DNA of 37,209 bases from Bacteroidota bacterium (GCA_051748705.1 JBNJHQ010000004.1:1-37209), one strand, 5' to 3'. Counted from the stretch's first letter, positions 11,516 through 29,997 are shown. A program made the numbers and translations. Notes: generated by a model not told the origin, from the sequence alone.

Positions 11516-11732
11516 AACTAATCCTTTTATTTGAGCACTTTTACAGATCTAATAACAGCATAAATCTGCAACAAATCAAGGTTACGAAAATATCGAATAA
11601 TTTAGAAAATCTCAAAGAATAACAATTATAATATTTAGTAACTGTAAGACAGCTATTTATAGACACAGACCAGTCATGAAAGCCATACAGGATACTGAAA
11701 AATCTAAAGAATTGGCAATAAAATTACTGTTT

Positions 11733-13049
11733 TCATGATTCATCTGATCTCCTGTTCTTCTCCAAAAGGTATTTGAATGGATAAACCAGGCGGTCTATCA
11801 GGCGCATATCTTCAGTAATAATCTCAGCTCTTCCTGACATACTCTGGCTAAAATCAAGTTGCTTCCCATAGAAAGTTGAAAGGCCATCAGGCAGCTCCAC
11901 ATCAAGCACATATAAATTATCCTGTGGCACAAGCGATCTTGATCTTACTATACCCCGCACCATTCCGTACTCAAGGTAAGGATAACTTTCAAGCTGAATG
12001 TTAACATCCTGTCCTACCCTTACCTTGCCGGATCCTGTCATTGGTATCTTTATGCGTGCAATAATTTCATTGTCCCCGCCCGGGACTACTGTCATCACGG
12101 TTTCTCCTTCCCGGACGGACTGGTTCTCTGACCAGAAAGAAGTAAAAGTGACTTTGCCCCTGGTTGGTGAGACAAGCAGGTAATTCTGGATCCACCAGTC
12201 GAATCTGGCCTTAAGCTTCAGTAGCTGGTCTTCCATTGCAGATTTGAATTTCTGTCTTTCCTCATCGCGAAAGGCGAGCAGATCCTGCAGTTCCTGTTTT
12301 TTTGAAGCCAGGTCTATTTGTCTTGATGCGGCTTCCAGACGTACCTGCACAAGTTCAATCCGGGTTGAGTAATAATTTTGCTTTGAATTTTCGAGTTCAG
12401 CATCCGGAAGTATGTCCTGTTGATTAAGAAGAGAGTCTCTCAGGTATTTTTTCTTTTCCACTTCCAAATTCGAATAGCTGATCTGTTCCTTGTGCTTTAG
12501 CTGCCGGATATAATCCTCAATACTTTTCACTTCGTCCCGGACAGCTTCGATCTTTTTCCCGTAATAATCAATTTGAACATGATTGAAATAGTCAAAAAAT
12601 GTTTTCCTGAATGCTGAATACTGGTCCTGTATTTCCCCCAGCACAGGGTTACCAGGCAGGTTGAACTCATGTTCAATCATTGATGAAGGCAGTTCATCTG
12701 ACTTAACGGTATCGAGCATTGCACTGAGCCATTTAATGCTTTCATAGGAAGCAGTAGTTTCCATAATACCCAGTATTGACCCGGAAGAAACAATATCTCC
12801 GTCATCAACAAAGAGCTCTTCAATGCTGCCGGATACTCTGGCCACGATATTTGCCGGAGGATTTTCAGTTGTAATAACAGCTTCGGCCCTTATTATGTAG
12901 GGGTATTTAATGAAGTACGACAGTAATAAAAGCAAGACAATAACTATTGTTACTATTACTGTTCCCCTGCGTACCAGTGAGGCCGGAGGTGTATTCATTA
13001 TATCCTCAACGGTCTGTGAATATCTTATTTCCTGAGTTTGCTTTTTCAT
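11733..13049 (-). CDS. HlyD-family membrane fusion (type I secretion adaptor) protein
   Basis: N-terminal TM, lipoyl-like half-motifs (VSGSIEELFVDDGDIV; SPTRGKV), long coiled coil, KVRVGQDVNIQLESYPYLEYG; starts 5 nt after the exporter stop. Confidence 0.93.
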   Translation of the reverse strand: MKKQTQEIRYSQTVEDIMNTPPASLVRRGTVIVTIVIVLLLLLSYFIKYPYIIRAEAVITTENPPANIVARVSGSIEELFVDDGDIVSSGSILGIMETTASYESIKWLSAMLDTVKSDELPSSMIEHEFNLPGNPVLGEIQDQYSAFRKTFFDYFNHVQIDYYGKKIEAVRDEVKSIEDYIRQLKHKEQISYSNLEVEKKKYLRDSLLNQQDILPDAELENSKQNYYSTRIELVQVRLEAASRQIDLASKKQELQDLLAFRDEERQKFKSAMEDQLLKLKARFDWWIQNYLLVSPTRGKVTFTSFWSENQSVREGETVMTVVPGGDNEIIARIKIPMTGSGKVRVGQDVNIQLESYPYLEYGMVRGIVRSRSLVPQDNLYVLDVELPDGLSTFYGKQLDFSQSMSGRAEIITEDMRLIDRLVYPFKYLLEKNRRSDES

Positions 13050-13054
13050 AATGA

Positions 13055-15241
13055 TCAGTTACCAAGCTCGAGCTGTTCTCTTATCAGGTTGAAATACATA
13101 CCCTTCTTTTCAATAAGGTCCTCGTGTGTTCCACTCTCAATCATACGTCCCCTGTCAATTACGACAATATTATCTGCCTGACGCACTGTACTCAGCCTGT
13201 GCGCAATAATTACCACGGTTCTGCCAGGGTAAAAATCATTGAGATTTGAAACTATTTGTTTTTCATTGGATGCGTCGAGAGAATTTGTGGCCTCATCGAA
13301 GAACAGGTATTCAGGGTTTTTATAGACCGCCCTGGCTATTAATATTCTCTGCTTCTGTCCCTGCGAAAGGCCCTGCCCGTTATGACCTATCCTTGTATTT
13401 ATTCCCAGGGGCAAAGTATCGATAAAGCTACTGATATTTGCTATTGTAGTGGCTCTAATCAGTCTATCCTTATCAATTGTTTCCACCCCGGGGGCAATAT
13501 TGTTGGCTATGGTATCAGGAAAAATATATCCATCCTGCATAACAACTCCCACCTTGCTCCTCCAGACTTTGAGGCTGAGGTTTCGCAGGTTGGTGTCACC
13601 TATCATCACATCTCCCTCCACCGGTACGTAAAAACCAAGCATCAGTTTCAAAAGGGTTGTTTTTCCGCTTCCGCTGGTTCCAACTATGGCAGTGATCTTT
13701 TTCCCGGGAATAACAATATCGATATCCTTCAGGACGAATGGTGACCGGGGGCCTTCATACTGAAAAGAAAGGCCATTAATAAAAATACTTCTGTTTGCCG
13801 GGAGGTCTTTTACTTTCATATCGGTAACTGACTCCTCGGTCTCACTGGCCTGTACCTCCGACAACCTGTCAAGGCTCAGTCTTGCGTCCTGGGCTGTCCT
13901 GAAAAACACAACCATCTGGTTTACAGGGATATTCAGTTGCCCTATTATAAACTGAACGGCGAGCATCATACCAAGTGTCATGCTGCCTGACAAGACAGCC
14001 AGTGCAGCTATGATTGTGATCAGCACATTGGATACCTCATTTATCAGTTTCCCGCCTGCAAGCTGGTACTGGGACAGGCTCATTGCTTTAACCCTTGTTT
14101 TGAAGAGGGAAGCCTGGAGGTTTTCCCAGTCCCATCTTTTACTGGTTTCACTCTGGGTAAGTTTGATTTCCTGCATGCCCGTGATTATTTCAATCAGCTT
14201 GGCATTATTATCGGATAACTGTTTGAACCTACGGTGATCAAGTTTGGCCCTGGGCTTCATAAAAAAGGTCACCCACCCAATATACAGAAGCGTTCCTGCT
14301 ATGAAAACGAGCAAAATATTAAGATTGTATATTGCCAGCACTATGCCGAATACCAGGAGGTTGACAAATGAAAACAAAACACTCAGGGACGTATTGCTCA
14401 GGAAAGATTCTATGCGCTGGTTATCTTCAATCCGCTGGAGTATATCACCACTTAACTTTTTATCAAAATAAGAAATGGGCAGGGCCATCATTTTATGCAA
14501 AAATCCGGAGACGACTGCCACATTCACCCTTGTGCTTATATGCAGTAATAACCACCCCCTTACAAATTCAACTGTCATTCTTCCGATAACAAGAGCCAGT
14601 TGTGCAAAGAGCACAAGGTAAATGAACCCCAGGTCCCTCGTGTTTATCCCAATATCTATAACAGCCTGGGTGAGAAAGGGAAATATTAGCTGTATAATGC
14701 TGCCTATAAGTAAGCCAAGGAATATCTGGAAGAAATACTTCCTGTATAGCTTAATATACTTGAAAAGAAAAGCGAAACCGGACTTCCCCCCTTCATTCTC
14801 TTCCTGTTCATAAAATGACGGTGTGGGCTGGAGAATCATTACAAGACCAACTTTTTCACCGTCAATCGTGGTCATTGCCCAGTTCTTTTCAAACTCATCC
14901 CTTGTATATTTTACAAGGCCCCGGGCAGGGTCAGCAACATAGACTATCCCTTTTTTTATCTTATATACCACGATAAAATGCTTTTGTCTCCAGTGGACAA
15001 TACATGGCAGGGGGGTATCTTCAGCAAGCCTTGAAAAGGGAATCCGCACACCCAGGGTCCTCAAACCGAGCGATTCGGCTGCTTCCGAGATACCGAGAAA
15101 GGAGACTCCTTCACGGGTAATATAGGAGCGTTCCCTTAAATCGGGGAGACTGAATTTCTTACCGTGAAAACGTGCAATCATCTGAAGGCAGGCGGGGCCA
15201 CAGTCCATTGCATCTGCTTGCCTTTCGAAGGGGAATGACAT
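13055..15241 (-). CDS. Peptidase C39-containing ABC transporter (PCAT; double-glycine leader processing and export)
   Basis: C39 motif QADAMDCGPACL (Cys14), HFIVV, VADP; ABC TM domain; Walker A GTSGSGKTT, signature LSQGQKQR, Walker B LFFDE, IAHRLSTV. Confidence 0.96.
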   Translation of the reverse strand: MSFPFERQADAMDCGPACLQMIARFHGKKFSLPDLRERSYITREGVSFLGISEAAESLGLRTLGVRIPFSRLAEDTPLPCIVHWRQKHFIVVYKIKKGIVYVADPARGLVKYTRDEFEKNWAMTTIDGEKVGLVMILQPTPSFYEQEENEGGKSGFAFLFKYIKLYRKYFFQIFLGLLIGSIIQLIFPFLTQAVIDIGINTRDLGFIYLVLFAQLALVIGRMTVEFVRGWLLLHISTRVNVAVVSGFLHKMMALPISYFDKKLSGDILQRIEDNQRIESFLSNTSLSVLFSFVNLLVFGIVLAIYNLNILLVFIAGTLLYIGWVTFFMKPRAKLDHRRFKQLSDNNAKLIEIITGMQEIKLTQSETSKRWDWENLQASLFKTRVKAMSLSQYQLAGGKLINEVSNVLITIIAALAVLSGSMTLGMMLAVQFIIGQLNIPVNQMVVFFRTAQDARLSLDRLSEVQASETEESVTDMKVKDLPANRSIFINGLSFQYEGPRSPFVLKDIDIVIPGKKITAIVGTSGSGKTTLLKLMLGFYVPVEGDVMIGDTNLRNLSLKVWRSKVGVVMQDGYIFPDTIANNIAPGVETIDKDRLIRATTIANISSFIDTLPLGINTRIGHNGQGLSQGQKQRILIARAVYKNPEYLFFDEATNSLDASNEKQIVSNLNDFYPGRTVVIIAHRLSTVRQADNIVVIDRGRMIESGTHEDLIEKKGMYFNLIREQLELGN

Positions 15242-15263
15242 AACTATTCGTGCTTAAAGCATG

Positions 15264-15294
15264 TAAATATATTTATAATTTAATTCTATTCAAA
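15264..15294 (-). promoter_or_regulatory. Putative primary-sigma promoter for the PCAT-HlyD operon
   Basis: Minus strand TTTG (15294-15291), 19-nt spacer, then TATATTTA (15271-15264), one mismatch from TAnnTTTG. Confidence 0.4.
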
Positions 15295-15351
15295 TACGAT
15301 GGCCCCGTGCTTAATGCTGTGGAATCATTCAGTTAATTATACCGGAAATAC

Positions 15352-15359
15352 TATATTTG
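15352..15359 (+). promoter_or_regulatory. Primary-sigma -7 element upstream of the ECF sigma gene
   Basis: TATATTTG is an exact TAnnTTTG match, 19 nt before the GTG start. Confidence 0.5.
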
Positions 15360-15378
15360 CCACAAATAATGAAATGAT

Positions 15379-15945
15379 GTGTTAAAAAAACACTCAGATA
15401 AAAAATTAATAGAGGGAATACGAAAGGGGGATCAGAATTCTATTAACTACCTCTATGACACATTTTTCGATACCATTAACTCATATATAGTAAAAAATAC
15501 AGGTACGGAGGATGATGCCTATGATATATTCCAGGATGCGATGATGGTAATCTTCAAAAAGATACAGCAGAACAACCTGGATGAATCAACGGATGTAAAA
15601 GGATATCTTTTTGGTGTTGCCCGCAATTTATGGCATGAACATCTGAGGAAGGAAAAGAAGAAGGTGGATCTGGACCCTGATGTGAGCGATGAATTTGATC
15701 CTTCAAGCCTGCTTGATACTCCCCTGGAGCAAATAGTGCAGAGATCATTCCTTGTTCTCAAGCCGGAATGCAGGGAAGTGCTCAATATGCTAATCAAAGG
15801 AGCTGACTATAAAGAGATCGCAAAAACCATGAATTATAAATCGGAAGATTATGCCCGAAGGAAAAAGTATCTCTGCAAAGAAGCGCTCATTAAAATAATC
15901 AAAGCTGATCCTGAATTCAGTGATTATTCTTTTACTGACCTGTAA
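15379..15945 (+). CDS. ECF-type sigma-70 factor (GTG start)
   Basis: Region 2 (EDDAYDIFQDAMM..YLFGVARNLW) and region 4 (LKPECREVL..YKEIAKTMNY..RRKKYLCKEAL); 188 aa. Confidence 0.92.
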   Translation: MLKKHSDKKLIEGIRKGDQNSINYLYDTFFDTINSYIVKNTGTEDDAYDIFQDAMMVIFKKIQQNNLDESTDVKGYLFGVARNLWHEHLRKEKKKVDLDPDVSDEFDPSSLLDTPLEQIVQRSFLVLKPECREVLNMLIKGADYKEIAKTMNYKSEDYARRKKYLCKEALIKIIKADPEFSDYSFTDL

Positions 15946-18923
15946 TAATACCGTATTAAAAGGTAGGCGATTGCCAGAACCATTATTATTAGAATGTATC
16001 TCTTCACAGGTAAATAAACAGCATCATCATCGCCTATAATAACCATGGTACTCCAGAAATAGGGATGTGATCGCATCTGGTCAGCACTGGAGAGGTAGTC
16101 CATTCTCGCTTTCCTGAGGGATCTGCTCTTCGTATGCCCCCGTTTCAGGTATAAATAGAAATTTTTTACCATTTCACTGCCCGACATGTCATCCACTTCC
16201 CAGAGTGACATAATCACACTCGGGCTTCCTGAGTAGAAGAAGCCTCTTGCCAGGCTCATTACACCCTCACCTGATTGCAGGAAGCCGCTGCCTGTGTTAC
16301 AGGAACTAAGGAACACCATCTTTGATCTGAATGGTATATTATAAACCTCGAAAGTATTAAGCATGCCATCTTCAACAGTATCGGCCTTCATATCGAATAT
16401 CATTTTTGAATACATTGGCTCACGATCATTTAAAAGGGTGTGCATCGAAAGGTGTATGATATCACCTTTGAGAACATTATTCTTGAATGCACTTTCAGTG
16501 GCCCGGTCATCAATGAACAGGTCTCCACCAAGTAATTTATTGATATAGATTGCTTCCTCACGAGCACCGGGTATATTGCCAAGGCTGTCACGAAACGACT
16601 GCCTGGTCATCATGAGCTCATTGACATCCATGTTACTACTGTATTCCGGGGCAAAGACAAGTGTGCGGTTTTTAATGCTCCTTCCGTATGATATTTTTTC
16701 TGACAGCAGGGTGGCTGAGTATTCGTATACTATATTGTATTCGTTCAGCAGGTAGGACAGCTCCCTGTAATTTACCTCGTCATAGTCGGGCATTTCAGAG
16801 ATCAGTGATTCAAAAGGGATGTATGAAAGAATATCATCAGCTGAAATAATCAACCTGTCAGAAACCAGGTAATCCTCCACCGGCAACACCAGTCTCTTGT
16901 ACAATTCTGAAGCAAGGCTGATAAATTGCCGGTACTGGGAAACTGACCCTTTTACAATGGAAGGCTCTATAAGTATATTCCTGAAATCAAGGAGCATTCC
17001 TCTTAAATCATCCTTACTGCTCACGGTCTTAACCTCAAATACCCGGTCATTTATAAGAAAAATATACAGCAGGCTGTCAGACAGGTAATACTCAATAAAG
17101 TTGCCATCTTTTCCTACCCTTTCCCTGATTTCTTCTATACTGCTTATTTCAGAATTGTGTTTAAGGTTAAAGTAGCGCGGATAATCTTTTTCAAAAATTC
17201 GTATAAGTGAGTCATGACGTGCCCCGGTTTTCAAGCTGAGCTGGCGGTAATGATTTATTAAATCATAATCAGGTTCCTGTTTTGCAGACTCATTATAAAT
17301 CACTTCGTTATAATCCCTGAGATCTGCCATCAGTTCTCTTTCGAGACCGGCAAGATCAGGGGGCAGGTGGTAATCCAGGGCCCTGTTGTTCCTTGTTGCC
17401 AGCAGCAGGCCGGCTGCCCTTGATTTCTCCGAAACTGCGAAGGCGCTCTCAGCATAAACAGGATCGCCCGTTAGCTCGAATAAACTATGCAAAATTGAAA
17501 GTGACAGATCATAAGCTTCAAAAAAATTACCGGAAACCCTGCTGCTGCTTTCATATTCCTTTACCCTTATCCTGGTATCTTCAATTAAGGCTACAGTCTT
17601 TTCTGCAGCAGACAAAGCCTCCTTCAGTATCTTCATATCACTTTCTGCCCCGGGCATACCTATGAGTATCCTGCTTTTATAGAGGTGGGCCGCTGTCCTT
17701 ATCCTTGATGACATTATCAAAGAATCCCCGATAAGCAAATTGATATATTCAAGGGCTTCACTATTTCTCCCGGTTTCATACATCAGCCTTGCATGATAGA
17801 GGTATGCCTCCCCTTTCACCCTACGGTCGTGTTCATTATTTCCTGCATATATAAGTGCCTGTTTTAACACTTTATCTAACTGTGTGTAATCGTCTGTTTC
17901 CTGGAGAAGGAAATAGGCATAATTCAGAAGCTGGATAATATGGTCGCGGCTGTTTGTCCCATAAGCCTTCTCAGCTTCATCAACCGATAAGAGCAAATAT
18001 TTCCTGGCCCCCTCCAGGTCATCAATTTCCGACAGCAGCCGGGAATAATTATCATAAAGTGAATAGAGGATCCTGCCCTTATAATGTGTGGATTCTACCA
18101 GGTCAATTGCTTTCTTAAAATAGTATTCTGATTCTTCGATGTTCTGCAGTTCAAAATTAGATGCTGCCAGTGATACATATGATCTCAATATATCCGCTAT
18201 ATCAATAGTTTCAGTCCTGGACTGGAGTGAATAAGCAAGTTCAAAATTGCGCTTTGCCCGGTTGAAATCAAAGATATTCATATAGGACACACCGGTATTG
18301 AAATATAAATTAAGCAGGTTTATATTATCTGTGAGATCCGGGTATGCCTCCGCAAGGTTTATCCCCCTTAGCGATACAGAAAGGGCCCTTTCATACATGC
18401 TCATATCAATATATACTGCAGAAAGGTTGACAAGTGTCTTTAGCAATAAGGGAGAAGTCGGCCCAAAGAGTTCTTCCCTTGTGGCAACAGCCAGTTCGAG
18501 GTTCTCCCTTGCCTGCTCCGGCTGCCCGCTATGATAATATGACAGTCCCAGATTTGTTCTTGCTTTGGTGTAAATATCATCAATACTGTCTTTTGCCAGC
18601 CTGAAGCGTATAGATTTTTGTAACAATCCTTTTGATTCATCGTATGAATCTGTAAGATATTTATATGTCCCGGCATAATAGTAACAATCGGATAAGAGGA
18701 TAGTGTCACGTGTATCATGGGTGGCAAGGTAATCCAGTATCCATTCATAGTATTCGCCGGCTGCGGGATTACTCTCCTGCATGGCAAGTTTAAAAGCGTC
18801 AAGCTTGTTGATCAGGGTGGAATCACCGGTAAGCGGTAAAGTATGATCGCCGGCATATAAAGGGGGAAAATAAGAAAAGAGAAAAACTGATAAAATTAAT
18901 ATGCACCTGCAGATTATGCCCAT
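15924..18923 (-). CDS. TPR-CHAT (caspase-like) protease with signal peptide and C-terminal TM anchor
   Basis: Signal-like N-terminus ending PLYA/G; many TPR helices; CHAT motifs LSYIPFESL, IHLSMHT (His), FLSSCNTG (Cys), GEGVMSLARGF, SLWEVDD, HPYFWS; hydrophobic C-terminal helix followed by basic residues. Confidence 0.92.
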   Translation of the reverse strand: MGIICRCILILSVFLFSYFPPLYAGDHTLPLTGDSTLINKLDAFKLAMQESNPAAGEYYEWILDYLATHDTRDTILLSDCYYYAGTYKYLTDSYDESKGLLQKSIRFRLAKDSIDDIYTKARTNLGLSYYHSGQPEQARENLELAVATREELFGPTSPLLLKTLVNLSAVYIDMSMYERALSVSLRGINLAEAYPDLTDNINLLNLYFNTGVSYMNIFDFNRAKRNFELAYSLQSRTETIDIADILRSYVSLAASNFELQNIEESEYYFKKAIDLVESTHYKGRILYSLYDNYSRLLSEIDDLEGARKYLLLSVDEAEKAYGTNSRDHIIQLLNYAYFLLQETDDYTQLDKVLKQALIYAGNNEHDRRVKGEAYLYHARLMYETGRNSEALEYINLLIGDSLIMSSRIRTAAHLYKSRILIGMPGAESDMKILKEALSAAEKTVALIEDTRIRVKEYESSSRVSGNFFEAYDLSLSILHSLFELTGDPVYAESAFAVSEKSRAAGLLLATRNNRALDYHLPPDLAGLERELMADLRDYNEVIYNESAKQEPDYDLINHYRQLSLKTGARHDSLIRIFEKDYPRYFNLKHNSEISSIEEIRERVGKDGNFIEYYLSDSLLYIFLINDRVFEVKTVSSKDDLRGMLLDFRNILIEPSIVKGSVSQYRQFISLASELYKRLVLPVEDYLVSDRLIISADDILSYIPFESLISEMPDYDEVNYRELSYLLNEYNIVYEYSATLLSEKISYGRSIKNRTLVFAPEYSSNMDVNELMMTRQSFRDSLGNIPGAREEAIYINKLLGGDLFIDDRATESAFKNNVLKGDIIHLSMHTLLNDREPMYSKMIFDMKADTVEDGMLNTFEVYNIPFRSKMVFLSSCNTGSGFLQSGEGVMSLARGFFYSGSPSVIMSLWEVDDMSGSEMVKNFYLYLKRGHTKSRSLRKARMDYLSSADQMRSHPYFWSTMVIIGDDDAVYLPVKRYILIIMVLAIAYLLIRYYYRSVKE

Positions 18924-19140
18924 CTGTAATAATATTATGCTTCAAGCATCCAAATATCAGTATAAGAACTTAAAAAGCAAAATAAAAATCACTATGCATA
19001 TCCTTGTATACCTGTATTTTATAAAAAATGTAAAAAAAAAGTCACTTTTTTTATGTCACAAAAAGGTTAAAAATGACATGTATATATGTAAAGCAAATTT
19101 TAACCCGATTAATTAAAAGTGTAACCAAAAAATTTAAACG

Positions 19141-19278
19141 ATGAAAACTTTAAACCAGGAAAACTTTGAAAATTTCAGTGACTTTTTACTTTCAGACGAA
19201 GAAATGATCCTCGTACGTGGCGGAGACGGTGAAGAAAAAGGTATGACAGTACCCCCGGTCACAGACCCTGAAATATAG
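19141..19278 (+). CDS. Double-glycine-leader precursor peptide, 45 aa (not in ORF track)
   Basis: MKTLNQENFENFSDFLLSDEEMILVRGG / DGEEKGMTVPPVTDPEI*. The leader matches LSxxE(L/M)xx(I/V)xGG, the start context is A-rich (aaaaaatttaaacgATG), and a C39 exporter lies 3.9 kb away. Confidence 0.85.
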   Translation: MKTLNQENFENFSDFLLSDEEMILVRGGDGEEKGMTVPPVTDPEI

Positions 19279-19280
19279 AA

Positions 19281-19532
19281 GCAGGCAATCCAGACGAAAT
19301 ACAGCGATCTGTAAAATATTTTAACCGTATTGAGCGGTGCCGTATGCTTATTGCGAAAGCTGCGGTGTGTAAAGGCACGCGAAATATGTCATATTAAGTT
19401 AGATGACATATAAGAAATGCTACGAAGCACGGTTGGCGTATACCCACCGGGTGTGCACACGGAGCAACTGCGGGGCAGGCAGAAATGGTATTTTCCATAA
19501 TCAGGCCTGCAGCATGACGGCCAGTAATGGCC
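19281..19532 (+). ncRNA. Candidate structured RNA or structured intercistronic region
   Basis: A run of hairpins found by eye, including GGCCA-GTAA-TGGCC and GC-GAAA-GC (GNRA loops), ATATGTCAT-N10-ATGACATAT and GCAGGC/GCCTGC. I recognise no known family. Confidence 0.35.
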
Positions 19533-19578
19533 AGGTAGTGAAATAGTAATATATTATCCAGATGAAATATAATAAATC

Positions 19579-20316
19579 ATGAAAAAAATTGAGTTCAACC
19601 GCTTTCTCGAAAGGTACCTCGAGGGAAAAATGCAAAGCGCCGAGAAGAAATGGTTTGAGGCTGAGCTGGAAGGTAATCCGGGACTTAAGAAGGAGCTCGA
19701 ATTGCGCAAAAAGGTCATTAAGCATCTTGAAAACCAGGATGCAATTGCATTCAGGCAAAGCCTTATGAGTGCCGAGGCAAGGCACAGAAAAGACAGGGCA
19801 AAACGAAAGGCAGCTTCCAAACACGTCATTCAGTATGCAGCTGTATTCGCTGGTCTCATTATTATTGCAAGCCTGGGTCTTTTTACCCTGAGAAACAATA
19901 TTGATGCAGATATTGCATCAAAGTATTCACCGGAGTATGTCCCTCTTTCAGTCTCACGTACATCGTCTGCAATGATTGATGAGGCATATTCAATGGCCAC
20001 AGAGTATTATAATTCAGGAAACTATGCTGAAGCAATAAAATGGTTCAACAGGATAGTGGATGCTGATATGCAGGTTGAATTTCTGAAGGGATCATCACAT
20101 ATGCAGATCAGCCAGTATAATGAAGCCATTGGCTCCTTCAGCAAAGTAGTTGAGGACAATGATAACCTCTTTATTGAAGATGCCCGGTTTTACCTTGCCG
20201 TATGCTATCTGCAGACAGGAGAAAAAGAAAGCTCGAGGCACTTGCTTGAGGCTATCACCAGGTCTGAAAACAGGCATAAGAAGGATGCAAGGAAACTTTT
20301 GAAAAAGATTGACTAA
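19579..20316 (+). CDS. Putative anti-sigma factor: N-terminal anti-sigma-like domain, single TM, C-terminal TPR domain
   Basis: ERYLEGKMQSAEKKWFEAELEGNPGLKKELE resembles a Zn-less anti-sigma N-terminal domain; basic stretch then TM (VIQYAAVFAGLIIIASLGLFTL); TPR motifs YYNSGNYAEAIKWF and ARFYLAVCYLQTGE. Confidence 0.7.
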   Translation: MKKIEFNRFLERYLEGKMQSAEKKWFEAELEGNPGLKKELELRKKVIKHLENQDAIAFRQSLMSAEARHRKDRAKRKAASKHVIQYAAVFAGLIIIASLGLFTLRNNIDADIASKYSPEYVPLSVSRTSSAMIDEAYSMATEYYNSGNYAEAIKWFNRIVDADMQVEFLKGSSHMQISQYNEAIGSFSKVVEDNDNLFIEDARFYLAVCYLQTGEKESSRHLLEAITRSENRHKKDARKLLKKID

Positions 20317-20345
20317 GAGGAATAGTACAAAAGCGGGAGATTTAC

Positions 20346-21164
20346 ATGACTTTTGGGAGAAATACGGAAAAGGTGTCACATACAGTTGACAAAGGGAAAC
20401 CAGGTGAAAAATCTCATATTCAGCAAAACGATATGCTTACTACTCCATCCATACTGACAGGATTGTCTCATGAAGTGCGAACATACATGAACTCGATTGT
20501 TGCATTCACTTTCCTGAGCAATAATGATAACTGCACGGATGAACAGAGGAATGAGTACAACAGGCATATCATGAAATCATGCGACCAGTTAATCACATTA
20601 TTTGACAATTTCCTTGATTCAGCACTGATCGATTCCGACATCCCAAGATCCACATATACAAAGTGCAAGCTTAATACCTTACTGGAAGATCTTCTAGATG
20701 ATATAAATAGTTCCATCAGCAGGTTTGATAAAAAGAAGGTTACACTACTGCTGGATGAGAGATCCGGAGGTGACTCATTATATATTGATAAGGAGAAAAT
20801 TAATCGGGTTTTAAAAAATCTCTTTTTCAATGCTTTTGAGAACACTGACGCGGGTTATATCAGGATGGGTTACAGGAAACAAAAAAACAGGGTTGATTTT
20901 TACATCATTGATTCGGGTAATGGTTACACAAAGAATCAACAACTGCTTGCCTGTGACAATTTTGAGGAGGAACTGGTGCAAAGCCAGAATACTTTTAACA
21001 CTGTTTCATTCATACTATCTCGCAAGCTTATCGAGAGTATGAATGGTGAATTATGGATACGACCCAATGGCGTTCACGGAACTGCTATGTATTTCTCGGT
21101 TCCCGAACCCAGGGTAATGAAAGAAGGAACATCTGAACATATTTCATCCAGAATCGCAATCTGA
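20346..21164 (+). CDS. Sensor-less, degenerate histidine kinase-like protein (HisKA + HATPase-like); start uncertain
   Basis: H-box LSHEVRTYMN, N-box LKNLFFNAFENT, G1 IIDSGNG, G3-like GVHGTAMYFSVP; G2 box GxGLGL is absent; no TM or sensor domain. Confidence 0.75.
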   Translation: MTFGRNTEKVSHTVDKGKPGEKSHIQQNDMLTTPSILTGLSHEVRTYMNSIVAFTFLSNNDNCTDEQRNEYNRHIMKSCDQLITLFDNFLDSALIDSDIPRSTYTKCKLNTLLEDLLDDINSSISRFDKKKVTLLLDERSGGDSLYIDKEKINRVLKNLFFNAFENTDAGYIRMGYRKQKNRVDFYIIDSGNGYTKNQQLLACDNFEEELVQSQNTFNTVSFILSRKLIESMNGELWIRPNGVHGTAMYFSVPEPRVMKEGTSEHISSRIAI

Positions 21165-21219
21165 TAATTATCAGAATTCTTTCTCACCTGTTTTTCAATG
21201 TCTGCCAAGAAAATGGGTA

Positions 21220-21256
21220 AAAGGGCACCTTTAAAGAAGGTGCTCTTTCTTTTTTT
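21220..21256 (+). terminator. Intrinsic terminator closing the peptide / anti-sigma / HK unit, possibly bidirectional
   Basis: AAAGGGCACCTT-TAAAG-AAGGTGCTCTTT forms a 12-bp stem with one G-U pair, followed by CTTTTTTT; it lies between convergent genes. Confidence 0.8.
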
Positions 21257-23235
21257 CATTCTGCAATTTTAAGTATCCGTATTTCAGTCCTCCTGTTCCG
21301 ACGCATACTCTCCTCGCTGTCGTTATCATTAAGAGGCATTTCCTCACCATATCCCTTATACCGGAGACGGTCAGCGCTTATACCCTTATCAATAAGATAG
21401 TCCCTGACAACAAGTGCCCTTTTTTCCGAAAGAACAATGTTGTGCTCATCACTGCCCGTAGAATCAGTATGCCCGCCTATCTCAACAGTCAGCCCGGGAT
21501 TGGCTTTTAGCAGATTGAACAGCTTTTCCAGTTCAGGCATTGACTCTTCCCTTAGCTCCCATGAATCAAAAGAGAAGAACACATTATGCAGGTTCATTTG
21601 CTCACCAACCATAATGGGACTTAATAATATGGTTTTTTGATAAGGCTCAAGCGAGCTATGCTCACCTTCAAGCATGAAATTCTCAGAATAGAAAAGATAG
21701 CCTTCGCTGCTTACATTGATACCATAGTTATGTCCAGTAGGCAGGCAAACGAGGAAATCACCCCGTTGATCTGTGTGCGATTGAATTACTGTTCTTTTTG
21801 TGCTCAGGTTTATCAACTCATAGCTGGCTTTAAGTTGTCTTCCCGTTTTCTTGTCCATTACCCTGCCTTTAAGATAGGAAACTGGATCGGGCCGGAGTGC
21901 TTCAGGCATTTCAAAAAAATAAAGATCCCTGCCTTTGAGGGGATTGATCCTGGAAGAAAAATATGCAAGCTTACCCGAGGAAGAAATTATCATCCCTATC
22001 TCATCGGTCTGGGTATTTATCGGGTAGCCAAGATTCTCAGGTTCTGTCCATGTACTGTCGGGCTTCATCCGCGACATAAATATATCAAATCCTCCCATGC
22101 ATGGACGGCCATTGGAAGAAAAGTAAAGTGTTTTACCATCAAAATGAATAAAAGGAGACATCTCATCTCCAGGGGTGTTAATTACATTTCCCAGATTAAG
22201 GGGCTCTGACCAGCGGCCATCCTTAACCTGCCTGCTTACCCATATATCCATTCCCCCGTATCCTCCGGGCCTGTTACTTACAAAGAAGAGCATGGAGCCG
22301 TCGGCGGAAAGTGATGGTTGTGATTCCCAGTACCTGGTGTTGACCGGCCCTCCAATATTTATCCCTTTCTTCCACCCGCTTTCAGATCTGGCTGAATAAT
22401 AAATATCACAGCCTCCCTTACCATCTTCCCGGTTACAGGCTGTGAAATACATATAATTACCGGATGCTTCCAGCGTTTGTGCACCCTCGTTGAATACAGT
22501 ATTCAGTGGTGCTCCGGCATTCCTGGCCTCAGTCCACTCACCTTCAATATTGTAACTGTAATAAAAATCTTCCTGCATGCCGCTGCCCATATTATTCCGG
22601 CTGCGTGAACTTTTCTGCCTGGTAAAAAGTAACATATTATTATCCGCTGTTATAGCCGGCCAGTATTCATCATCAGCAGTATTAATTGCATCACCCATGT
22701 TCACCGGGTTAAAATCTACAGGGTTCAATATTGCCTCCAGTGCAAACTCACAATCCATTAAATATTTCCTTGCCTTTCCTGCATTAACTGAATTTTCACC
22801 TCCCAGTTGCAGGTATAATTCAAATTTGCTTTTTGCATCCGAATAATTCCCTAACAGGAAATGTACCTCCCCGTATTCATACCATGCCGGCACAAAAAAT
22901 ACTGAATCAATACGCATAGCCTGCCGGTATGCATACGCAGATTGCTCATAATCAAGTATGTCCTTTGATAACTCGGCCAGGAGAATATAAGCTTCAATAA
23001 AGCCGGGATCAATCTCAACTGCTTCACGAAGATGCTGTTCAGCTGACCTGTAATCCAGGAAAGAATAAGCTTCCCTGCCAAAGTTATATGCTTTCAATGC
23101 CTTGTTTGACCTGGTATGAAGCTCCTGTGACATCAGGTTATGTGGCTGGATAATAAGTAATCCCAGGAATAAGACCCTAAGAAAGCATCTTAAGGTATAC
23201 CCATGAATTTGTGACTTTGTAATGATATTGACCAT
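21256..23235 (-). CDS. PorE-like protein: TPR + PD40/WD40 propeller + carboxypeptidase-regulatory-like + OmpA peptidoglycan-binding domain
   Basis: TPR N-terminus; PD40 repeats (SQPSLSADGSMLFFVSNRPGGYGGMDIW); OmpA motifs GGHTDSTGS, LSEKRA and NRRTEI. Start is uncertain because it overlaps queE by 46 nt. Confidence 0.88.
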   Translation of the reverse strand: MVNIITKSQIHGYTLRCFLRVLFLGLLIIQPHNLMSQELHTRSNKALKAYNFGREAYSFLDYRSAEQHLREAVEIDPGFIEAYILLAELSKDILDYEQSAYAYRQAMRIDSVFFVPAWYEYGEVHFLLGNYSDAKSKFELYLQLGGENSVNAGKARKYLMDCEFALEAILNPVDFNPVNMGDAINTADDEYWPAITADNNMLLFTRQKSSRSRNNMGSGMQEDFYYSYNIEGEWTEARNAGAPLNTVFNEGAQTLEASGNYMYFTACNREDGKGGCDIYYSARSESGWKKGINIGGPVNTRYWESQPSLSADGSMLFFVSNRPGGYGGMDIWVSRQVKDGRWSEPLNLGNVINTPGDEMSPFIHFDGKTLYFSSNGRPCMGGFDIFMSRMKPDSTWTEPENLGYPINTQTDEIGMIISSSGKLAYFSSRINPLKGRDLYFFEMPEALRPDPVSYLKGRVMDKKTGRQLKASYELINLSTKRTVIQSHTDQRGDFLVCLPTGHNYGINVSSEGYLFYSENFMLEGEHSSLEPYQKTILLSPIMVGEQMNLHNVFFSFDSWELREESMPELEKLFNLLKANPGLTVEIGGHTDSTGSDEHNIVLSEKRALVVRDYLIDKGISADRLRYKGYGEEMPLNDNDSEESMRRNRRTEIRILKIAE

Positions 23236-23813
23236 CCAGTATGCTTTTTAACGTATTCAACCACTTGAGGCATTATCTTCTTATAGCTGCTCCATTCGGG
23301 CTGAAGGTACAATTTACATACAGGGTTTACTTTTTCCCTGTATTTTTCAGCCCAGTTAAAATCATCCTCACTTTCAATTATTACCTTCAATTCTCCTGCC
23401 AGACTGCAAATATCTCCGGTTGGTGGAAGATTTTTTTTCGGAGAAAGGCATATCCAGTCCCATATACCTGTCAATTCATGAGAACCTGAAGTTTCCAGAT
23501 ATGTTTTTATATTCAATGCTTTTAACTCCCTGCAGAGGGGGTCCAGGTTATACATCAATGGTTCACCACCTGTTATAACAACTGAATCAGCACCTGAATC
23601 CCTTACAGCATAAATAATTGAATTTATATGGGTCATCTCCCATTGGGCGGGATCCCAGGCAAATTTCGTATCGCACCAGCTGCACCCTACATCACAACCA
23701 CCGATGCGTAAAAAAAATGCAGCCTTACCGGTATGGAAGCCTTCCCCCTGTATTGAATAGAACTGTTCAACCAGTGGAAGATAAATACCTGTATCCTTTG
23801 ATTCACTACTCAT
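23190..23813 (-). CDS. queE: 7-carboxy-7-deazaguanine synthase (radical SAM)
   Basis: FYSIQGEG, CDVGCSWCD (CxxxCxxC), VITGGEP, ETSG, CLSPK, LQPEW, SLQSHK. Confidence 0.92.
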   Translation of the reverse strand: MSSESKDTGIYLPLVEQFYSIQGEGFHTGKAAFFLRIGGCDVGCSWCDTKFAWDPAQWEMTHINSIIYAVRDSGADSVVITGGEPLMYNLDPLCRELKALNIKTYLETSGSHELTGIWDWICLSPKKNLPPTGDICSLAGELKVIIESEDDFNWAEKYREKVNPVCKLYLQPEWSSYKKIMPQVVEYVKKHTGWSISLQSHKFMGIP

Positions 23814-28905: not shown

Positions 28906-29997
28906 TTATAATGATTTAACTGCATCTAGTTCAATCTCAAAAAGCAAATCATCCCTGCATACTGTGCCACCAACAGTAAGAACGCATGAAGTGTCTATTC
29001 CCCTTGACATGCAATAATCTCTGAAGTGTTTTATATGCTGTGTATCCGGGAAGTATGCAATAGCGCGTACAATATTATCCCAATGGTATTGCTCATTAAC
29101 CAGAATAGCCTCCACCACCACCATTGAATGCTCTATCTGATCGACGACGCTATTTTCATAGAGTGTCTTCCCTTTCCCGTCAATTGAAGCCGTACCACTA
29201 ATGATCAGTCTTTTTGATGTTTTGAAGCTGATTTCCACCGCCCTGCTGAACGAGCTTTTGTATTTTATTGCATCACCCTGCATCGGGGAATCAATAATTC
29301 TAACCTTCTCCTTTCCATCTTTTGCCTTAAGTGCAAAGGCACTGATCAAAAGACATTTACCTTCAACATTGTCAAGGCCGATCCCGGTGCTGGCAGGAAT
29401 AAGGCCGTCGAGTATCTTCTCTTCAATAAAAAAGTCATTCCTGGCCCTGTTTAAATCACTATACCAACTCAGTATATCATGAAGATAAAGCCATGTGCGA
29501 GCAAGATTACTATAGTTGACAGCATATTCTTTAAGTATTTTGCCAAGTATTTTAAATGAAGAGTAAGCCTGACTGTAGCAATCATTCAGATGATCAGACT
29601 GTATGTTGCTTATGAAATAAAGTAAAGAATCATAATGACTGACAGTTTTAATACTGGCACTATCCTTATTTCTTATTGATTTAACATCCCTGCTATCAGT
29701 ACATATTAATTGAATATGGCAGCCTGATGAAACATTATGCCTCAGGAATATTATACCACCTGGTTCATCTGATAATTGATCAATTATCGGGGCTTCAAAG
29801 CCAAAGGCAAAACCAATTAATACCTGCAGTACATTATTCGTCAGATAAGCAGATAAATTTTTCATTGCCAGACAAATATCCTTATCCGGATGCACTGAGT
29901 AATTAATATAAAAAAATGAATGATCAGGGTATTCCTCCCGTACGGAAATCAAATCATTTTTGTCAGATACGGAAGCAGTATTCTTGCTAATTTTCAT
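28906..29997 (-). CDS. Rid/YjgF-fold (chorismatase-like, tandem domain) protein
   Basis: ARTWLYLHDIL, PASTGIG, SSFSRA, ISGTASID, VCRDDLLFEIE. Confidence 0.75.
   Translation of the reverse strand: MKISKNTASVSDKNDLISVREEYPDHSFFYINYSVHPDKDICLAMKNLSAYLTNNVLQVLIGFAFGFEAPIIDQLSDEPGGIIFLRHNVSSGCHIQLICTDSRDVKSIRNKDSASIKTVSHYDSLLYFISNIQSDHLNDCYSQAYSSFKILGKILKEYAVNYSNLARTWLYLHDILSWYSDLNRARNDFFIEEKILDGLIPASTGIGLDNVEGKCLLISAFALKAKDGKEKVRIIDSPMQGDAIKYKSSFSRAVEISFKTSKRLIISGTASIDGKGKTLYENSVVDQIEHSMVVVEAILVNEQYHWDNIVRAIAYFPDTQHIKHFRDYCMSRGIDTSCVLTVGGTVCRDDLLFEIELDAVKSL

What the first reader, a model, noticed from the sequence alone, without database searches (positions are those of the whole stretch)
11733..21256. 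Candidate peptide-pheromone / CHAT protease / anti-sigma / ECF signalling circuit
Seen: one contiguous block between housekeeping genes encodes a catalytically intact C39 ABC exporter plus HlyD, a GG-leader peptide, a TPR-CHAT protease with His and Cys, an ECF sigma, an anti-sigma-like TM-TPR protein and a degenerate kinase, closed by a terminator. No RiPP-modifying enzyme or immunity gene is evident. Established: PCATs cleave after GG and export the core; TPR domains bind peptide pheromones (RRNPP family); the TPR-CHAT Csx29 of type III-E CRISPR cleaves Csx30, which controls an ECF-like sigma. Inference: the exported core is sensed by an extracytoplasmic TPR, activates CHAT cleavage of the anti-sigma and frees the ECF, which may drive more peptide. 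That would be a quorum-sensing-like, caspase-relayed system in Bacteroidota. I do not know it as a described system, but I cannot check the literature.
Basis: partly seen in the sequence, partly recalled or inferred. Interest (0 to 1): 0.92.

Follow-up and report, generated by a model that had tools for sequence, protein, structure and literature searches.

The report
Exported peptide wired to caspase-like sigma switch
A conserved gene set in marine and sediment Bacteroidota couples a small exported peptide to a caspase-like periplasmic protease, a membrane anti-sigma factor and a sigma factor that switches the peptide gene on, which looks like an undescribed peptide signalling circuit in Gram-negative bacteria.

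Summary
All seven genes and the terminator lie at the stated coordinates.

The set is conserved well beyond this genome. Of 80 related loci, 51 had enough flank to judge, and 36 of those carry all seven genes. A GG-leader peptide gene sits next to the CHAT gene in 64 of 65 loci that have at least 1 kb on that side. At least four different gene orders keep all the parts.

A bipartite ECF-type promoter motif precedes the peptide gene. It occurs once per locus and once in the whole genome. In seven relatives the same motif also precedes the ECF gene itself. The sigma factor therefore most likely drives the peptide operon.

The "kinase" is a RetS-like pseudo-kinase.

Two steps were not shown: that the peptide is sensed, and that CHAT cleaves the anti-sigma.

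The closest known system is Myxococcus DdvA/DdvS, where the anti-sigma is fused to the TPR-CHAT domain. Eight literature searches found no description of this composite. I rate it a new variant of a known kind, of high interest.

The parts
11733..13049 (-). HlyD-family membrane-fusion adaptor of the exporter. Single N-terminal TM at 29-47.
   Evidence: Pfam HlyD_3 E=9.8e-9. TIGR01843 E=2.1e-29, below its cut-off. Hydropathy. Lies next to the PCAT gene in 50 of 80 loci.
13055..15241 (-). Peptidase-containing ABC exporter (PCAT) with an intact C39 domain. It is the only C39 ABC exporter found in the assembled genome.
   Evidence: Pfam C39, ABC_membrane and ABC_tran. Catalytic and ATPase motifs kept in at least 95% of 54 orthologues. 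Single C39 hit genome-wide.
15242..15378 (.). Divergent PCAT/ECF intergenic region. It does not carry the peptide-type promoter motif.
   Evidence: PWM scan: the only hit in the window is at 19046. Sequence shown.
15379..15945 (+). ECF-type sigma-70 factor. Its 3' end overlaps the CHAT 3' end by 22 nt, convergently.
   Evidence: Sigma70_r2 E=2.7e-8. TIGR02937 44.6 bits against a cut-off of 42.9. PDB hits to SigW and SigE. Next to CHAT in 80 of 80 loci.
15924..18923 (-). Membrane-anchored periplasmic TPR-CHAT (caspase-like) protease. Signal-like N-terminus, TPR region, CHAT domain at about 670-965, C-terminal TM at 972-990.
   Evidence: CHAT PF12770 E=8.1e-49. H824, H828 and C875 invariant in 60 sequences. 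Hydropathy.
19046..19085 (+). Conserved bipartite promoter-like motif, TTTTTTnGTGTCACAAAA-N11-cGACATGTA. Proposed ECF-dependent promoter of the peptide operon.
   Evidence: The regex matches 46 of 59 peptide upstream regions. The PWM, trained on those same upstream regions, gives no hit at score 14 or more anywhere else in 1.46 Mb of loci. One PWM hit in the 2.73 Mb genome. A homologous motif precedes both ECF and peptide genes in relatives.
19141..19278 (+). GG-leader precursor peptide: a 28-aa leader ending VRGG and a 17-aa acidic, Pro-rich core, DGEEKGMTVPPVTDPEI.
   Evidence: ORF and translation. Orthologues in 70 of 80 loci. G27 and G28 invariant in 60 sequences. TIGR04149 leader match is weak only, E=0.023.
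19279..19578 (+). Spacer between the peptide and anti-sigma genes, moderately structured as RNA. RNA-library contigs run through it into the anti-sigma gene.
   Evidence: Fold z=-2.8. No Rfam match. Contigs X2 19298-19642 and X4 19347-19660.
19579..20316 (+). Putative anti-sigma factor. Cytoplasmic helical N-domain (1-85), one TM (86-104), periplasmic linker with near-invariant R127-S128, then three TPRs.
   Evidence: TPR Pfam hits. Weak anti-sigma NCBIfam hits. Alignment A3. Hydropathy. Homologues lie directly after an ECF gene in 26 of 28 class-wide loci.
20346..21164 (+). Soluble HisKA + HATPase_c protein with no sensor or TM. RetS-like degenerate kinase.
   Evidence: Pfam. Best PDB hit is RetS 6dk8, E=1.4e-13. 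No G2 box, and H42 is Arg in 8 of 54 orthologues.
21220..21248 (+). Intrinsic-terminator-like hairpin that closes the peptide/anti-sigma/kinase operon.
   Evidence: 13-bp stem with 5 GC pairs, followed by CTTTTTTTCA.

Best explanation
This is a self-contained peptide-signalling ECF switch.

Shown directly:
- The block encodes a GG-leader precursor, the only C39 exporter in the assembled genome with its adaptor, an ECF sigma, a periplasmic membrane-anchored TPR-CHAT protease with an invariant His/Cys dyad, a single-pass TM-TPR protein, and a soluble pseudo-kinase.
- The set is conserved across many Bacteroidales- and Marinilabiliales-type genomes in several gene orders.
- A unique bipartite motif precedes the peptide/anti-sigma/kinase operon.

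Strongly inferred:
- The motif is the promoter read by the locus's own ECF. The ECF is the only conserved DNA-binding protein of the block.
- In relatives where the ECF and anti-sigma genes form an operon, the same motif sits before both the ECF gene and the peptide gene or genes.

Inferred:
1. The precursor is cut after Gly-Gly by the C39 domain and exported.
2. The short acidic core, which ends in an aliphatic residue, reaches the periplasm.
3. There it binds a TPR surface. I favour the fast-evolving N-terminal TPR of the CHAT protein, whose gene lies next to the peptide gene, facing away from it, in the window-type and Marinifilaceae-type arrangements.
4. Binding activates CHAT as a site-1 protease, which clips the periplasmic linker of the anti-sigma. 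The near-invariant R127-S128 is the candidate site.
5. An RseP-type site-2 protease then frees the ECF.
6. The ECF raises transcription of the peptide (positive feedback), the anti-sigma (reset) and the pseudo-kinase.

The pseudo-kinase is the likely output, acting by RetS-like interference with another two-component pathway.

My odds:
- ECF controls the peptide operon: about 0.8.
- The TM-TPR protein is the cognate anti-sigma: about 0.8.
- The peptide acts on the CHAT/anti-sigma module: about 0.55.
- The full autoinducing loop: about 0.45.
For: **Gene content:**

**Conservation (built), of 80 loci:**
- ECF 80, anti-sigma 68, kinase 59, peptide 70, PCAT 62, HlyD 50.
- Of the 51 loci with at least 3 kb on the left and 6 kb on the right, 36 have all seven genes.
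- 64 of the 65 loci with at least 1 kb upstream of CHAT carry a GG-leader ORF.

**Rearranged orders that keep all parts:** L035 and L109 (HlyD-PCAT-HK-antiS-pep|CHAT...ECF), L151 (ECF-antiS|CHAT|pep-PCAT-HlyD), and L034/L101.

**Genome-level link:**
- A PCAT orthologue at 57-58% identity is present in 5 of 5 Marinifilaceae and Prolixibacter genomes whose CHAT locus lacks an adjacent exporter.
- Among 39 relatives, 20 of 22 with a strong CHAT orthologue (E<1e-90) have the PCAT, against 3 of 17 without one. Kin are not independent.

**Promoter:**
- One motif per locus and none elsewhere in 1.46 Mb. One in the own genome. One per genome at the peptide gene in 3 of 5 same-genus genomes, plus one stray hit.
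- The GGT[AT]ACCTTTT-N-GGAATAAAG motif sits before both ECF and peptide in G440, G441, G442, G444, L119, L120 and L151. That is 17 hits against 0 for the reversed control.

**Peptide:**
- The leader is conserved (58% mean identity) and the core is variable (38%). Cores are short, Cys-poor, acidic or neutral, and end in an aliphatic residue in most loci.
- Tandem arrays of 2-5 copies occur.
- It is the only GG-leader ORF and the only C39 exporter in the genome.

**Topology:**

**Site-2 protease:** an RseP family hit in 5 of 5 near-complete relatives.

**RNA libraries:** contigs cover the peptide gene from 19099, 17 nt past the motif, in two runs of one study, and bridge into the anti-sigma gene in two others. 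This is a weak hint only.

Against:
- The anti-sigma N-domain matches no Pfam anti-sigma model at E<=1 among the listed families and no anti-sigma structure. NCBIfam hits are weak: 7 of 49 and 5 of 49, with best E values of 0.015 and 0.0031.
- Most full loci also share the flanking genes (OmpA-like in 43 of 44, DUF349 in 42 of 44). Much of the conservation is therefore inherited synteny.
- The wider ECF/anti-sigma/CHAT triads across Bacteroidia show no GG-leader ORF within 10 kb. The triad can therefore work without a peptide.
- The motif is absent before the PCAT, CHAT and ECF genes in this clade.
- The 5' end seen in RNA contigs (19099) lies about 10 nt further from the motif than an ECF -10 box would predict. 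Contigs cannot prove a transcription start.
- A mirror-tree test did not single out a receptor domain.
- RseP was not found in the own genome, which is 78% complete.
- One locus (L070) keeps the promoter, anti-sigma, CHAT, ECF and exporter but lacks the peptide and kinase genes.
Confidence: 0.45

Rival explanations
1. The peptide is an output only. The CHAT/anti-sigma/ECF triad senses some other envelope or environmental cue, as the peptide-less triads elsewhere in Bacteroidia must do. It then switches on an exported peptide that acts outside the circuit, for example as a signal to another receptor, a competitor-directed peptide or a chelator. There is no feedback.
For: Peptide-less ECF/anti-sigma/CHAT triads are common: the anti-sigma family is found in 61 of 401 Bacteroidia genomes, and CHAT lies within 10 kb in 15 of 20 loci without any GG-leader hit. 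The motif places the peptide downstream of the ECF. Tandem peptide gene arrays fit a mass-produced product.
Against: No immunity gene or modifying enzyme is present. Cores are 12-25 aa, acidic or neutral and unmodified, which is unlike membrane-active bacteriocins (the comparison is recalled). The peptide gene stays next to and divergent from CHAT even where the exporter is 9-17 kb away. That adjacency is unexplained if CHAT and the peptide do not interact.
Confidence: 0.3
2. The peptide is a substrate or a securin-like inhibitor of the CHAT protease. Either CHAT matures or degrades the exported peptide, or the peptide blocks CHAT. The loop is then negative, or a maturation step, rather than autoinduction.
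For: The peptide and CHAT genes lie side by side, facing away from each other, in most arrangements. Many cores share an acidic start of the GGD-x-D-P type that could be a second cleavage site. Separase is held by a pseudo-substrate, securin (passage in PMC11506125).
Against: No conserved residue is shared by all core types. The window's own genus lacks the D-P start. Nothing was tested.
Confidence: 0.15
3. These are two unrelated modules, a peptide exporter and an ECF/CHAT regulator, that sit together only through inherited gene order.
For: The flanking genes are conserved along with the block in most loci.
Against: At least four gene orders in different chromosomal contexts keep the parts together. 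The ECF-type motif sits on the peptide gene. Genome-level co-occurrence holds.
Confidence: 0.05

Closest known systems
[quoted passage not shown]
   Same: An ECF sigma held by a single-pass anti-sigma. A periplasmic TPR-CHAT with a His/Cys dyad. CHAT proposed as the site-1 protease ahead of RseP.
   Different: Here the TPR-CHAT and the anti-sigma are separate proteins, each with its own membrane anchor. No fused form turned up in the 'longer' search. The anti-sigma N-domain has no Cys or His zinc motif (sequence). The periplasmic part of the anti-sigma is a small three-TPR domain. A dedicated exported peptide, its exporter and a pseudo-kinase are attached. No CBASS or CRISPR regulon is present, and there are no PADLOC hits apart from generic ATPase-type matches for the PCAT and one weak hit for HlyD.
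Type III-E CRISPR craspase: Csx29 TPR-CHAT cleaving Csx30, which controls an RpoE-like sigma (PMC10028731; search listing and start of abstract only)
   Same: A TPR-CHAT protease placed upstream of an ECF-like sigma factor.
   Different: Craspase is cytoplasmic and RNA-guided. Here CHAT is periplasmic, there is no Cas7-11 or CRISPR, and the presumed substrate is a membrane anti-sigma.
GG-leader peptide pheromone systems of Gram-positive bacteria, such as ComC/ComAB/ComDE (recalled)
   Same: A short unmodified GG-leader peptide. A C39 ABC exporter. The peptide gene sits under the control of the pathway it may feed.
   Different: There is no membrane sensor kinase or response regulator. The kinase-like protein is soluble and degenerate. 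The transducer would be a protease/anti-sigma/ECF chain in a Gram-negative periplasm.
DegS/RseA/sigma-E envelope stress pathway (recalled)
   Same: Exposed peptide C-termini activate a periplasmic site-1 protease. This leads to anti-sigma cleavage, then RseP, then release of the ECF.
   Different: The protease is a caspase-like CHAT with TPRs, not an HtrA/PDZ protease. The activating peptide would be a dedicated, genetically encoded, exported product.
RetS of Pseudomonas aeruginosa (PDB 6dk8 and 6dk7 found; its function is recalled)
   Same: A DHp plus a degenerate catalytic domain. It is the best PDB match of the kinase-like protein (E=1.4e-13).
   Different: RetS is a large membrane hybrid protein. 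Here the protein is a 272-aa soluble DHp-CA unit co-transcribed with a peptide and an anti-sigma.

Membership tests
Peptidase-containing ABC transporter (PCAT) | N-terminal C39 domain with catalytic Cys/His (plus Gln and Asp) | tested here: met
   Pfam C39 E=1.7e-36. Q8, C14, H88 and D104 kept in at least 95% of 54 orthologues. Which residues are catalytic is recalled.
Peptidase-containing ABC transporter (PCAT) | ABC transmembrane domain and nucleotide-binding domain with Walker A/B, signature and H-loop motifs | tested here: met
   Pfam. Motif conservation.
Peptidase-containing ABC transporter (PCAT) | A cognate GG-leader substrate encoded nearby | tested here: met
   45-aa ORF with ...VRGG. 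G27 and G28 invariant in 60 sequences. It is the only such ORF in the genome.
TIGR04149 rSAM-modified GG-leader RiPP | Score above the family cut-off | tested here: not met
   14.6 bits against a cut-off of 25, E=0.023, leader only.
TIGR04149 rSAM-modified GG-leader RiPP | A partner radical-SAM maturase | tested here: not met
   None in the block. The nearest radical-SAM gene is QueE-like.
ECF sigma factor | Sigma-2 and sigma-4 regions, above the superfamily cut-off | tested here: met
   Sigma70_r2 E=2.7e-8. TIGR02937 44.6 bits against 42.9, residues 22-166. PDB hits to SigW and SigE.
Class I anti-sigma factor (ASD / zf-HC2 type) | Sequence match of the N-terminal domain to anti-sigma models | tested here: inconclusive
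   No Pfam anti-sigma family among those listed at E<=1. NCBIfam anti-sigma models hit 7 of 49 and 5 of 49 members, best E 0.015 and 0.0031. No anti-sigma structure was hit.
Class I anti-sigma factor (ASD / zf-HC2 type) | Gene directly downstream of its ECF, with a single TM and an extracytoplasmic domain | tested here: met
   Homologues follow an ECF gene in 26 of 28 class-wide loci. In the window's own clade the gene has moved behind the peptide gene. Topology.
Class I anti-sigma factor (ASD / zf-HC2 type) | Physical binding to the ECF | not testable with these tools
TPR-CHAT protease (separase/craspase type) | CHAT domain with a His/Cys dyad, preceded by TPRs | tested here: met
   PF12770 167 bits, TPR_12. 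H824/H828 and C875 invariant in 60 sequences.
TPR-CHAT protease (separase/craspase type) | Fold match to solved TPR-CHAT structures | not testable with these tools
   The CHAT domain alone has no PDB sequence hit at E<=1.
DdvA-type anti-sigma | Anti-sigma domain, TM and TPR-CHAT in one polypeptide | tested here: not met
   They are separate genes. None of the 18 longer relatives carries CHAT (the tool warns this is weak).
DdvA-type anti-sigma | CHCC zinc-binding N-domain | tested here: not met
   No Cys in residues 1-85 (sequence). The motif definition comes from PMC11506125.
Type III-E craspase module | Association with Cas7-11/gRAMP and CRISPR, and a cytoplasmic location | tested here: not met
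   No such genes among the window ORFs. No PADLOC hits for CHAT, ECF, the anti-sigma or the kinase. CHAT has signal-like and TM segments.
Canonical sensor histidine kinase | H, N, G1 and G2 boxes, a sensor or TM input, and a partner response regulator | tested here: not met
   The H box is present in the window copy, but H42 is Arg in 8 of 54 orthologues. There is no G2 box and no TM. No response-regulator domain turned up among the Pfam hits for the block's ORFs. The best PDB hit is RetS.
RRNPP peptide receptors | A cytoplasmic TPR receptor fused to an effector domain, with a re-imported peptide | tested here: not met
   Both TPR domains are predicted to be periplasmic. There is no HTH or phosphatase fusion.

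The most novel reading that the evidence does not exclude
This would be a Gram-negative peptide quorum-sensing circuit of a new architecture. A ribosomal GG-leader peptide, exported by its own PCAT, gates a periplasmic caspase-like TPR-CHAT protease. That protease acts as the site-1 protease of a separate TM-TPR anti-sigma and frees an ECF sigma, which autoinduces the peptide. Outputs would run through a RetS-like pseudo-kinase and, in Marinifilaceae, a secreted gingipain-family protease that carries the same promoter motif.
Probability: 0.4. Interest if true: 0.9.

Novelty: new variant of a known kind. Interest (0 to 1): 0.78.

Why it matters
- Peptide-based cell-cell signalling is textbook for Gram-positive bacteria but barely documented in Bacteroidota.
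- Bacterial caspase-like CHAT proteases have very few assigned substrates.
- For the only studied CHAT-linked anti-sigma, DdvA, the activating signal is unknown (PMC11506125).

This system supplies a candidate ligand, a candidate substrate and a candidate promoter in a single locus. It also occurs in cultured, non-pathogenic genera (Marinifilum, Labilibaculum, Ancylomarina, Prolixibacter). The open question of how a periplasmic CHAT protease controls an ECF sigma therefore becomes directly testable with a synthetic 12-17-residue peptide.

Tried and rejected

**Searches that found nothing useful**
- CHAT domain alone against PDB sequences: no hit at E<=1.
- The CHAT profile search was swamped by generic TPR hits.
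- Anti-sigma N-domain profile against PDB: no anti-sigma hit. The best hit was a Nif11 domain protein at E=0.0026.
- Search for a Rosetta-stone fusion of the anti-sigma with CHAT ('longer' search): 18 hits, none with CHAT. The tool warns that this is weak evidence.
- Rfam on 11400-21500: no match at E<=1.
- PADLOC: nothing except generic ATPase-type hits for the PCAT and one weak hit for HlyD.

**Tests that did not discriminate**
- Mirror-tree test of peptide-core divergence against each domain, on 34 loci. Partial correlations were 0.28-0.40 for every CHAT and anti-sigma domain, including the cytoplasmic one. It does not pick out a receptor.
- The window-type motif was not found before ECF genes of distant triads. 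This is uninformative because those ECFs are divergent.
- GG-leader searches in the wider triads were negative. My first regexes were too strict and missed the short Marinifilaceae peptides, which I found later. The leader HMM with positive controls is the better test.

**RNA contigs**
- No contig covers 19056-19098. This fits a non-transcribed divergent promoter, but a gap in contig cover proves nothing.
- Sparse cover of the PCAT and CHAT genes likewise cannot rank expression.
- All four runs come from one study and may contain DNA.

**Literature**
- Eight searches found no paper that describes the composite.
- The ECF classification paper's main text has no mention of 'CHAT', 'TPR' or 'caspase'. 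Its supplements could not be read and may list this genomic context.

Full report
**1. Observation**

| Part | Coordinates | Key evidence |
|---|---|---|
| HlyD-family adaptor | 11733-13049 (-) | HlyD_3 E=9.8e-9 |
| C39 ABC exporter | 13055-15241 (-) | Peptidase_C39 E=1.7e-36 |
| ECF sigma | 15379-15945 (+) | TIGR02937 44.6 bits, cut-off 42.9 |
| TPR-CHAT, 999 aa | 15924-18923 (-) | CHAT E=8.1e-49 |
| GG-leader ORF, 45 aa | 19141-19278 (+) | MKTLNQENFENFSDFLLSDEEMILVRGG / DGEEKGMTVPPVTDPEI |
| TM-TPR protein, 245 aa | 19579-20316 (+) | TPR Pfam hits |
| HisKA/HATPase protein, 272 aa | 20346-21164 (+) | HisKA 1.7e-6, HATPase_c 1.1e-9 |
| Terminator-like hairpin | 21220-21248 (+) | 13-bp stem and T run |

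- The exporter's Q8, C14, H88 and D104 and all its ATPase motifs are kept in at least 95% of 54 orthologues.
- CHAT residues H824, H828 and C875 are invariant in 60 sequences.
- Hydropathy places the TPR-CHAT body outside the cytoplasm. It has a signal-like N-terminus and a C-terminal TM at 972-990 with a basic tail.
- The TM-TPR protein has a cytoplasmic N-domain, one TM at 86-104 and periplasmic TPRs.
- The ECF and the kinase-like protein have no TM.
- No modifying enzyme lies in the block. The radical-SAM gene at 23190-23813 is QueE-like.
- The assembled genome (2.73 Mb, 78% complete) holds one C39 exporter, one such peptide and one copy of the system.

**2. Conservation**

A search of 40 relatives found CHAT matches in 31. 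Twenty neighbourhoods were fetched. They show the whole block in the same order in all same-genus genomes fetched and in two other genera. It is rearranged but complete in G022 (L035) and partly seen in G017 (L034).

A scan of one genome per species returned 590 CHAT relatives, of which the best 80 were kept with 10-kb flanks. I annotated these with HMMs built from the first set, with GG-leader searches and a final tally.

| Component | Of 80 loci | Of 51 loci with adequate flanks (>=3 kb left, >=6 kb right of CHAT) |
|---|---|---|
| ECF | 80 | 51 |
| Anti-sigma | 68 | 51 |
| Kinase | 59 | 47 |
| Peptide | 70 | 50 |
| C39 exporter | 62 | 44 |
| HlyD | 50 | 39 |
| All seven | - | 36 |

- Most misses sit at contig ends.
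- 64 of the 65 loci with at least 1 kb upstream of CHAT carry a GG-leader ORF. The exception (L070) keeps the promoter and anti-sigma but has lost the peptide and kinase genes.
- Caveat: in loci with an adjacent exporter the flanking OmpA-like gene (43 of 44) and DUF349 gene (42 of 44) are also conserved, so much of this is inherited order.

Independent support comes from other arrangements:
- L109 and L035: HlyD-PCAT-HK-antiS-pep|CHAT...ECF.
- L151: ECF-antiS|CHAT|pep-PCAT-HlyD.
- L034/L101.
- Cultured Labilibaculum, Marinifilum, Ancylomarina and Prolixibacter. Here 2-5 tandem peptide genes and the kinase gene lie beside CHAT and the ECF-antiS operon. A 57-58% identical exporter lies elsewhere in all five genomes searched. 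In Marinifilum flexuosum it lies about 9 kb from the ECF gene, if the tool's contig number corresponds to the record, with unrelated genes between.

Across 39 relatives, 20 of 22 with a strong CHAT orthologue have the exporter, against 3 of 17 without one. Kin are not independent.

**3. A wider family without the peptide**

The TM-TPR protein family occurs in 61 of 401 sampled Bacteroidia genomes at E<=1e-20 (the count includes the unpublished G130).

- In 26 of 28 loci examined it lies directly after an ECF gene. In 13 of 28 a CHAT gene is adjacent.
- With 10-kb flanks, 15 of 20 have CHAT nearby.
- A leader HMM that recovers all positive controls finds no GG-leader ORF in 18 of the 19 broader class-wide triad loci scanned or in 5 same-order or same-family loci. 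L151, not scanned with the HMM, carries a peptide by an earlier HMM and regex search; L033, already known to carry a peptide, scored and acts as a further positive control.

So there is a broad ECF / TM-TPR anti-sigma / periplasmic TPR-CHAT triad, effectively a split form of DdvA. One large subfamily of it has acquired the peptide, the pseudo-kinase and the exporter.

**4. Promoter**

Upstream of the peptide gene lies TTTTTTnGTGTCACAAAA-N11-cGACATGTA, at 19046-19085.

- TGTCAC-N15-GACAT occurs in 46 of 59 peptide upstream regions at fixed spacing.
- A PWM trained on those upstream regions hits 53 loci once each, always before the peptide gene. It hits nothing else in 1.46 Mb.
- It hits once in the whole genome.
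- In five same-genus genomes the exact pattern hits the peptide promoter in three, plus one stray site.

In related clades the motif is GGT[AT]ACCTTTT-N-GGAATAAAG, or GTATTAAC in Prolixibacter.

- It lies before the peptide gene or array and also before the ECF-antiS operon in the same genome.
- An exact-pattern search of four Marinifilaceae genomes gave 17 hits against 0 for the reversed control. It covered both sites in all four genomes.

Autoregulated ECF operons and bipartite -35/-10 boxes with about 16-nt spacing are the ECF norm (recalled). The ECF is the only conserved DNA-binding protein of the locus. I therefore read the motif as its promoter. In the window's clade the anti-sigma gene has moved behind the peptide gene, and the ECF gene no longer carries the motif.

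Extra sites in Marinifilaceae:
- a secreted Peptidase_C25 gene (three genomes);
- an EamA transporter (one genome confirmed by Pfam, a conserved site in a second);
- a small HTH gene about 5 kb upstream of the exporter on the same strand (two genomes).

**5. RNA**

Four metatranscriptome runs of one study hold 35-61% of the stretch's words. When laid on the window:
- contigs begin at 19099 in two runs (X1 19099-19459, flanked by adapter sequence, and X3 19099-19325);
- contigs bridge the spacer into the anti-sigma gene in two others (X2 19298-19642 and X4 19347-19660).

Contigs cannot prove a start, a strand or a level, and DNA may be present. This is a weak hint that the operon is transcribed from just downstream of the motif. 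The spacer folds with z=-2.8 and matches no Rfam family.

**6. The peptide**

- The leader is conserved: 58% mean pairwise identity, with G27 and G28 invariant.
- Cores are short (12-25 aa), variable (38%), acidic or neutral and almost free of Cys. In most loci they end in an aliphatic residue, for example ...PPVTEPEI...PPVKI...EDCIV...EDILV.
- This profile suits a signal better than a membrane-active bacteriocin (the comparison is recalled).
- The TIGR04149 match is sub-threshold and covers the leader only.

**7. The anti-sigma**

- Sequence support is weak. Context and topology support is strong.
- The periplasmic linker is variable (32% identity) but holds R127-S128 in at least 90% of 58 sequences. 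I propose this as a candidate cleavage site. That is inference only.

**8. The kinase-like protein**

- Its best solved relative is RetS (E=1.4e-13).
- The G2 box is absent in all orthologues. H42 is Arg, and the N-box Asn is Ile, in 8 of 54.
- Phosphotransfer is therefore dispensable in part of the family. A RetS-like protein-interaction role is the best guess (RetS function is recalled).

**9. Mechanism and rivals**

See the structured fields. The step from ECF to peptide transcription is the best supported. Peptide sensing and CHAT cleavage of the anti-sigma are inferred from topology, from the adjacency of the peptide and CHAT genes in most arrangements, and from the DdvA precedent.

An RseP-type protease is present in 5 of 5 near-complete relatives. 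It was not found in the incomplete own genome. TolC-like genes exist elsewhere in the genome. Seven loci of one clade have the exporter without an adjacent HlyD, so delivery to the periplasm alone may be enough.

**10. Comparison and novelty**

[quoted passage not shown] Eight literature searches found no description of the split triad with a peptide. Supplements of the ECF classification paper could not be read.

I file it as a new variant of known kinds: ECF/anti-sigma regulated proteolysis combined with GG-leader peptide export.

**11. Limits**

There was no structure or complex prediction and no experiment. Earlier scan notes were unavailable. The counts come from related genomes that are not independent.

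Noticed in passing
L061:8593-9514 (-); L108, L110, L113-L115, L119, L120: The peptide genes occur as tandem arrays: five identical copies in L061, 2-5 copies in Labilibaculum, Marinifilum and Ancylomarina, and four copies of two types in Prolixibacter.
   Followed up: partly
L183:1638-3029, L192:2-1390, L182 (Labilibaculum, Marinifilum): The same ECF-type motif precedes a secreted Peptidase_C25 (gingipain-family) gene in three Marinifilaceae genomes. It also precedes an EamA transporter and a small HTH gene about 5 kb upstream of the exporter. These are possible regulon outputs.
   Followed up: partly
L070:8698-9720: This is a natural variant. The promoter motif is followed directly by the anti-sigma gene, and the peptide and kinase genes are missing, while CHAT, ECF, the exporter and HlyD remain.
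   Followed up: partly
window 15924-15945: The ECF and CHAT genes converge and overlap by 22 nt. Orthologous loci show the same overlap (for example L041), so antisense interference is possible.
   Followed up: no
window 19279-19578: The 300-nt spacer after the peptide gene folds better than shuffles (z=-2.8) and contains a perfect 9-bp inverted repeat at about 19384-19411. An RNA-library contig covering 19099-19459 is flanked by adapter sequence on both sides, as if it were a discrete short RNA.
   Followed up: partly
window 19579-19833 (anti-sigma N-domain): The profile of the cytoplasmic domain gives its best PDB hit to a Nif11 domain protein (9zn4, E=0.0026), a family otherwise known as RiPP leader peptides. 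The meaning is unclear.
   Followed up: no
window 21256-23235 (-): The flanking gene encodes a TPR / PD40 / CarboxypepD_reg / OmpA protein that resembles T9SS PorE and the CHU_0125 family, below both cut-offs. It is conserved beside the block in 43 of 44 full loci but absent from the rearranged loci.
   Followed up: partly
L080, L084, L090-L092, L095, L097: In this clade the exporter has no adjacent HlyD adaptor gene, and the peptide cores end in ...PPVIIE[ILFV].
   Followed up: no
L099, L074, L107; G005:C16: Some loci show CHAT, ECF or the exporter split into several frames. This may reflect frameshifts or assembly errors. G005 carries a second copy of the system whose CHAT is interrupted by a TGA.
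   Followed up: no
window 29987-32362 (-): A 791-aa protein combines multihaem cytochrome c motifs, HEAT repeats and TPRs.
   Followed up: no
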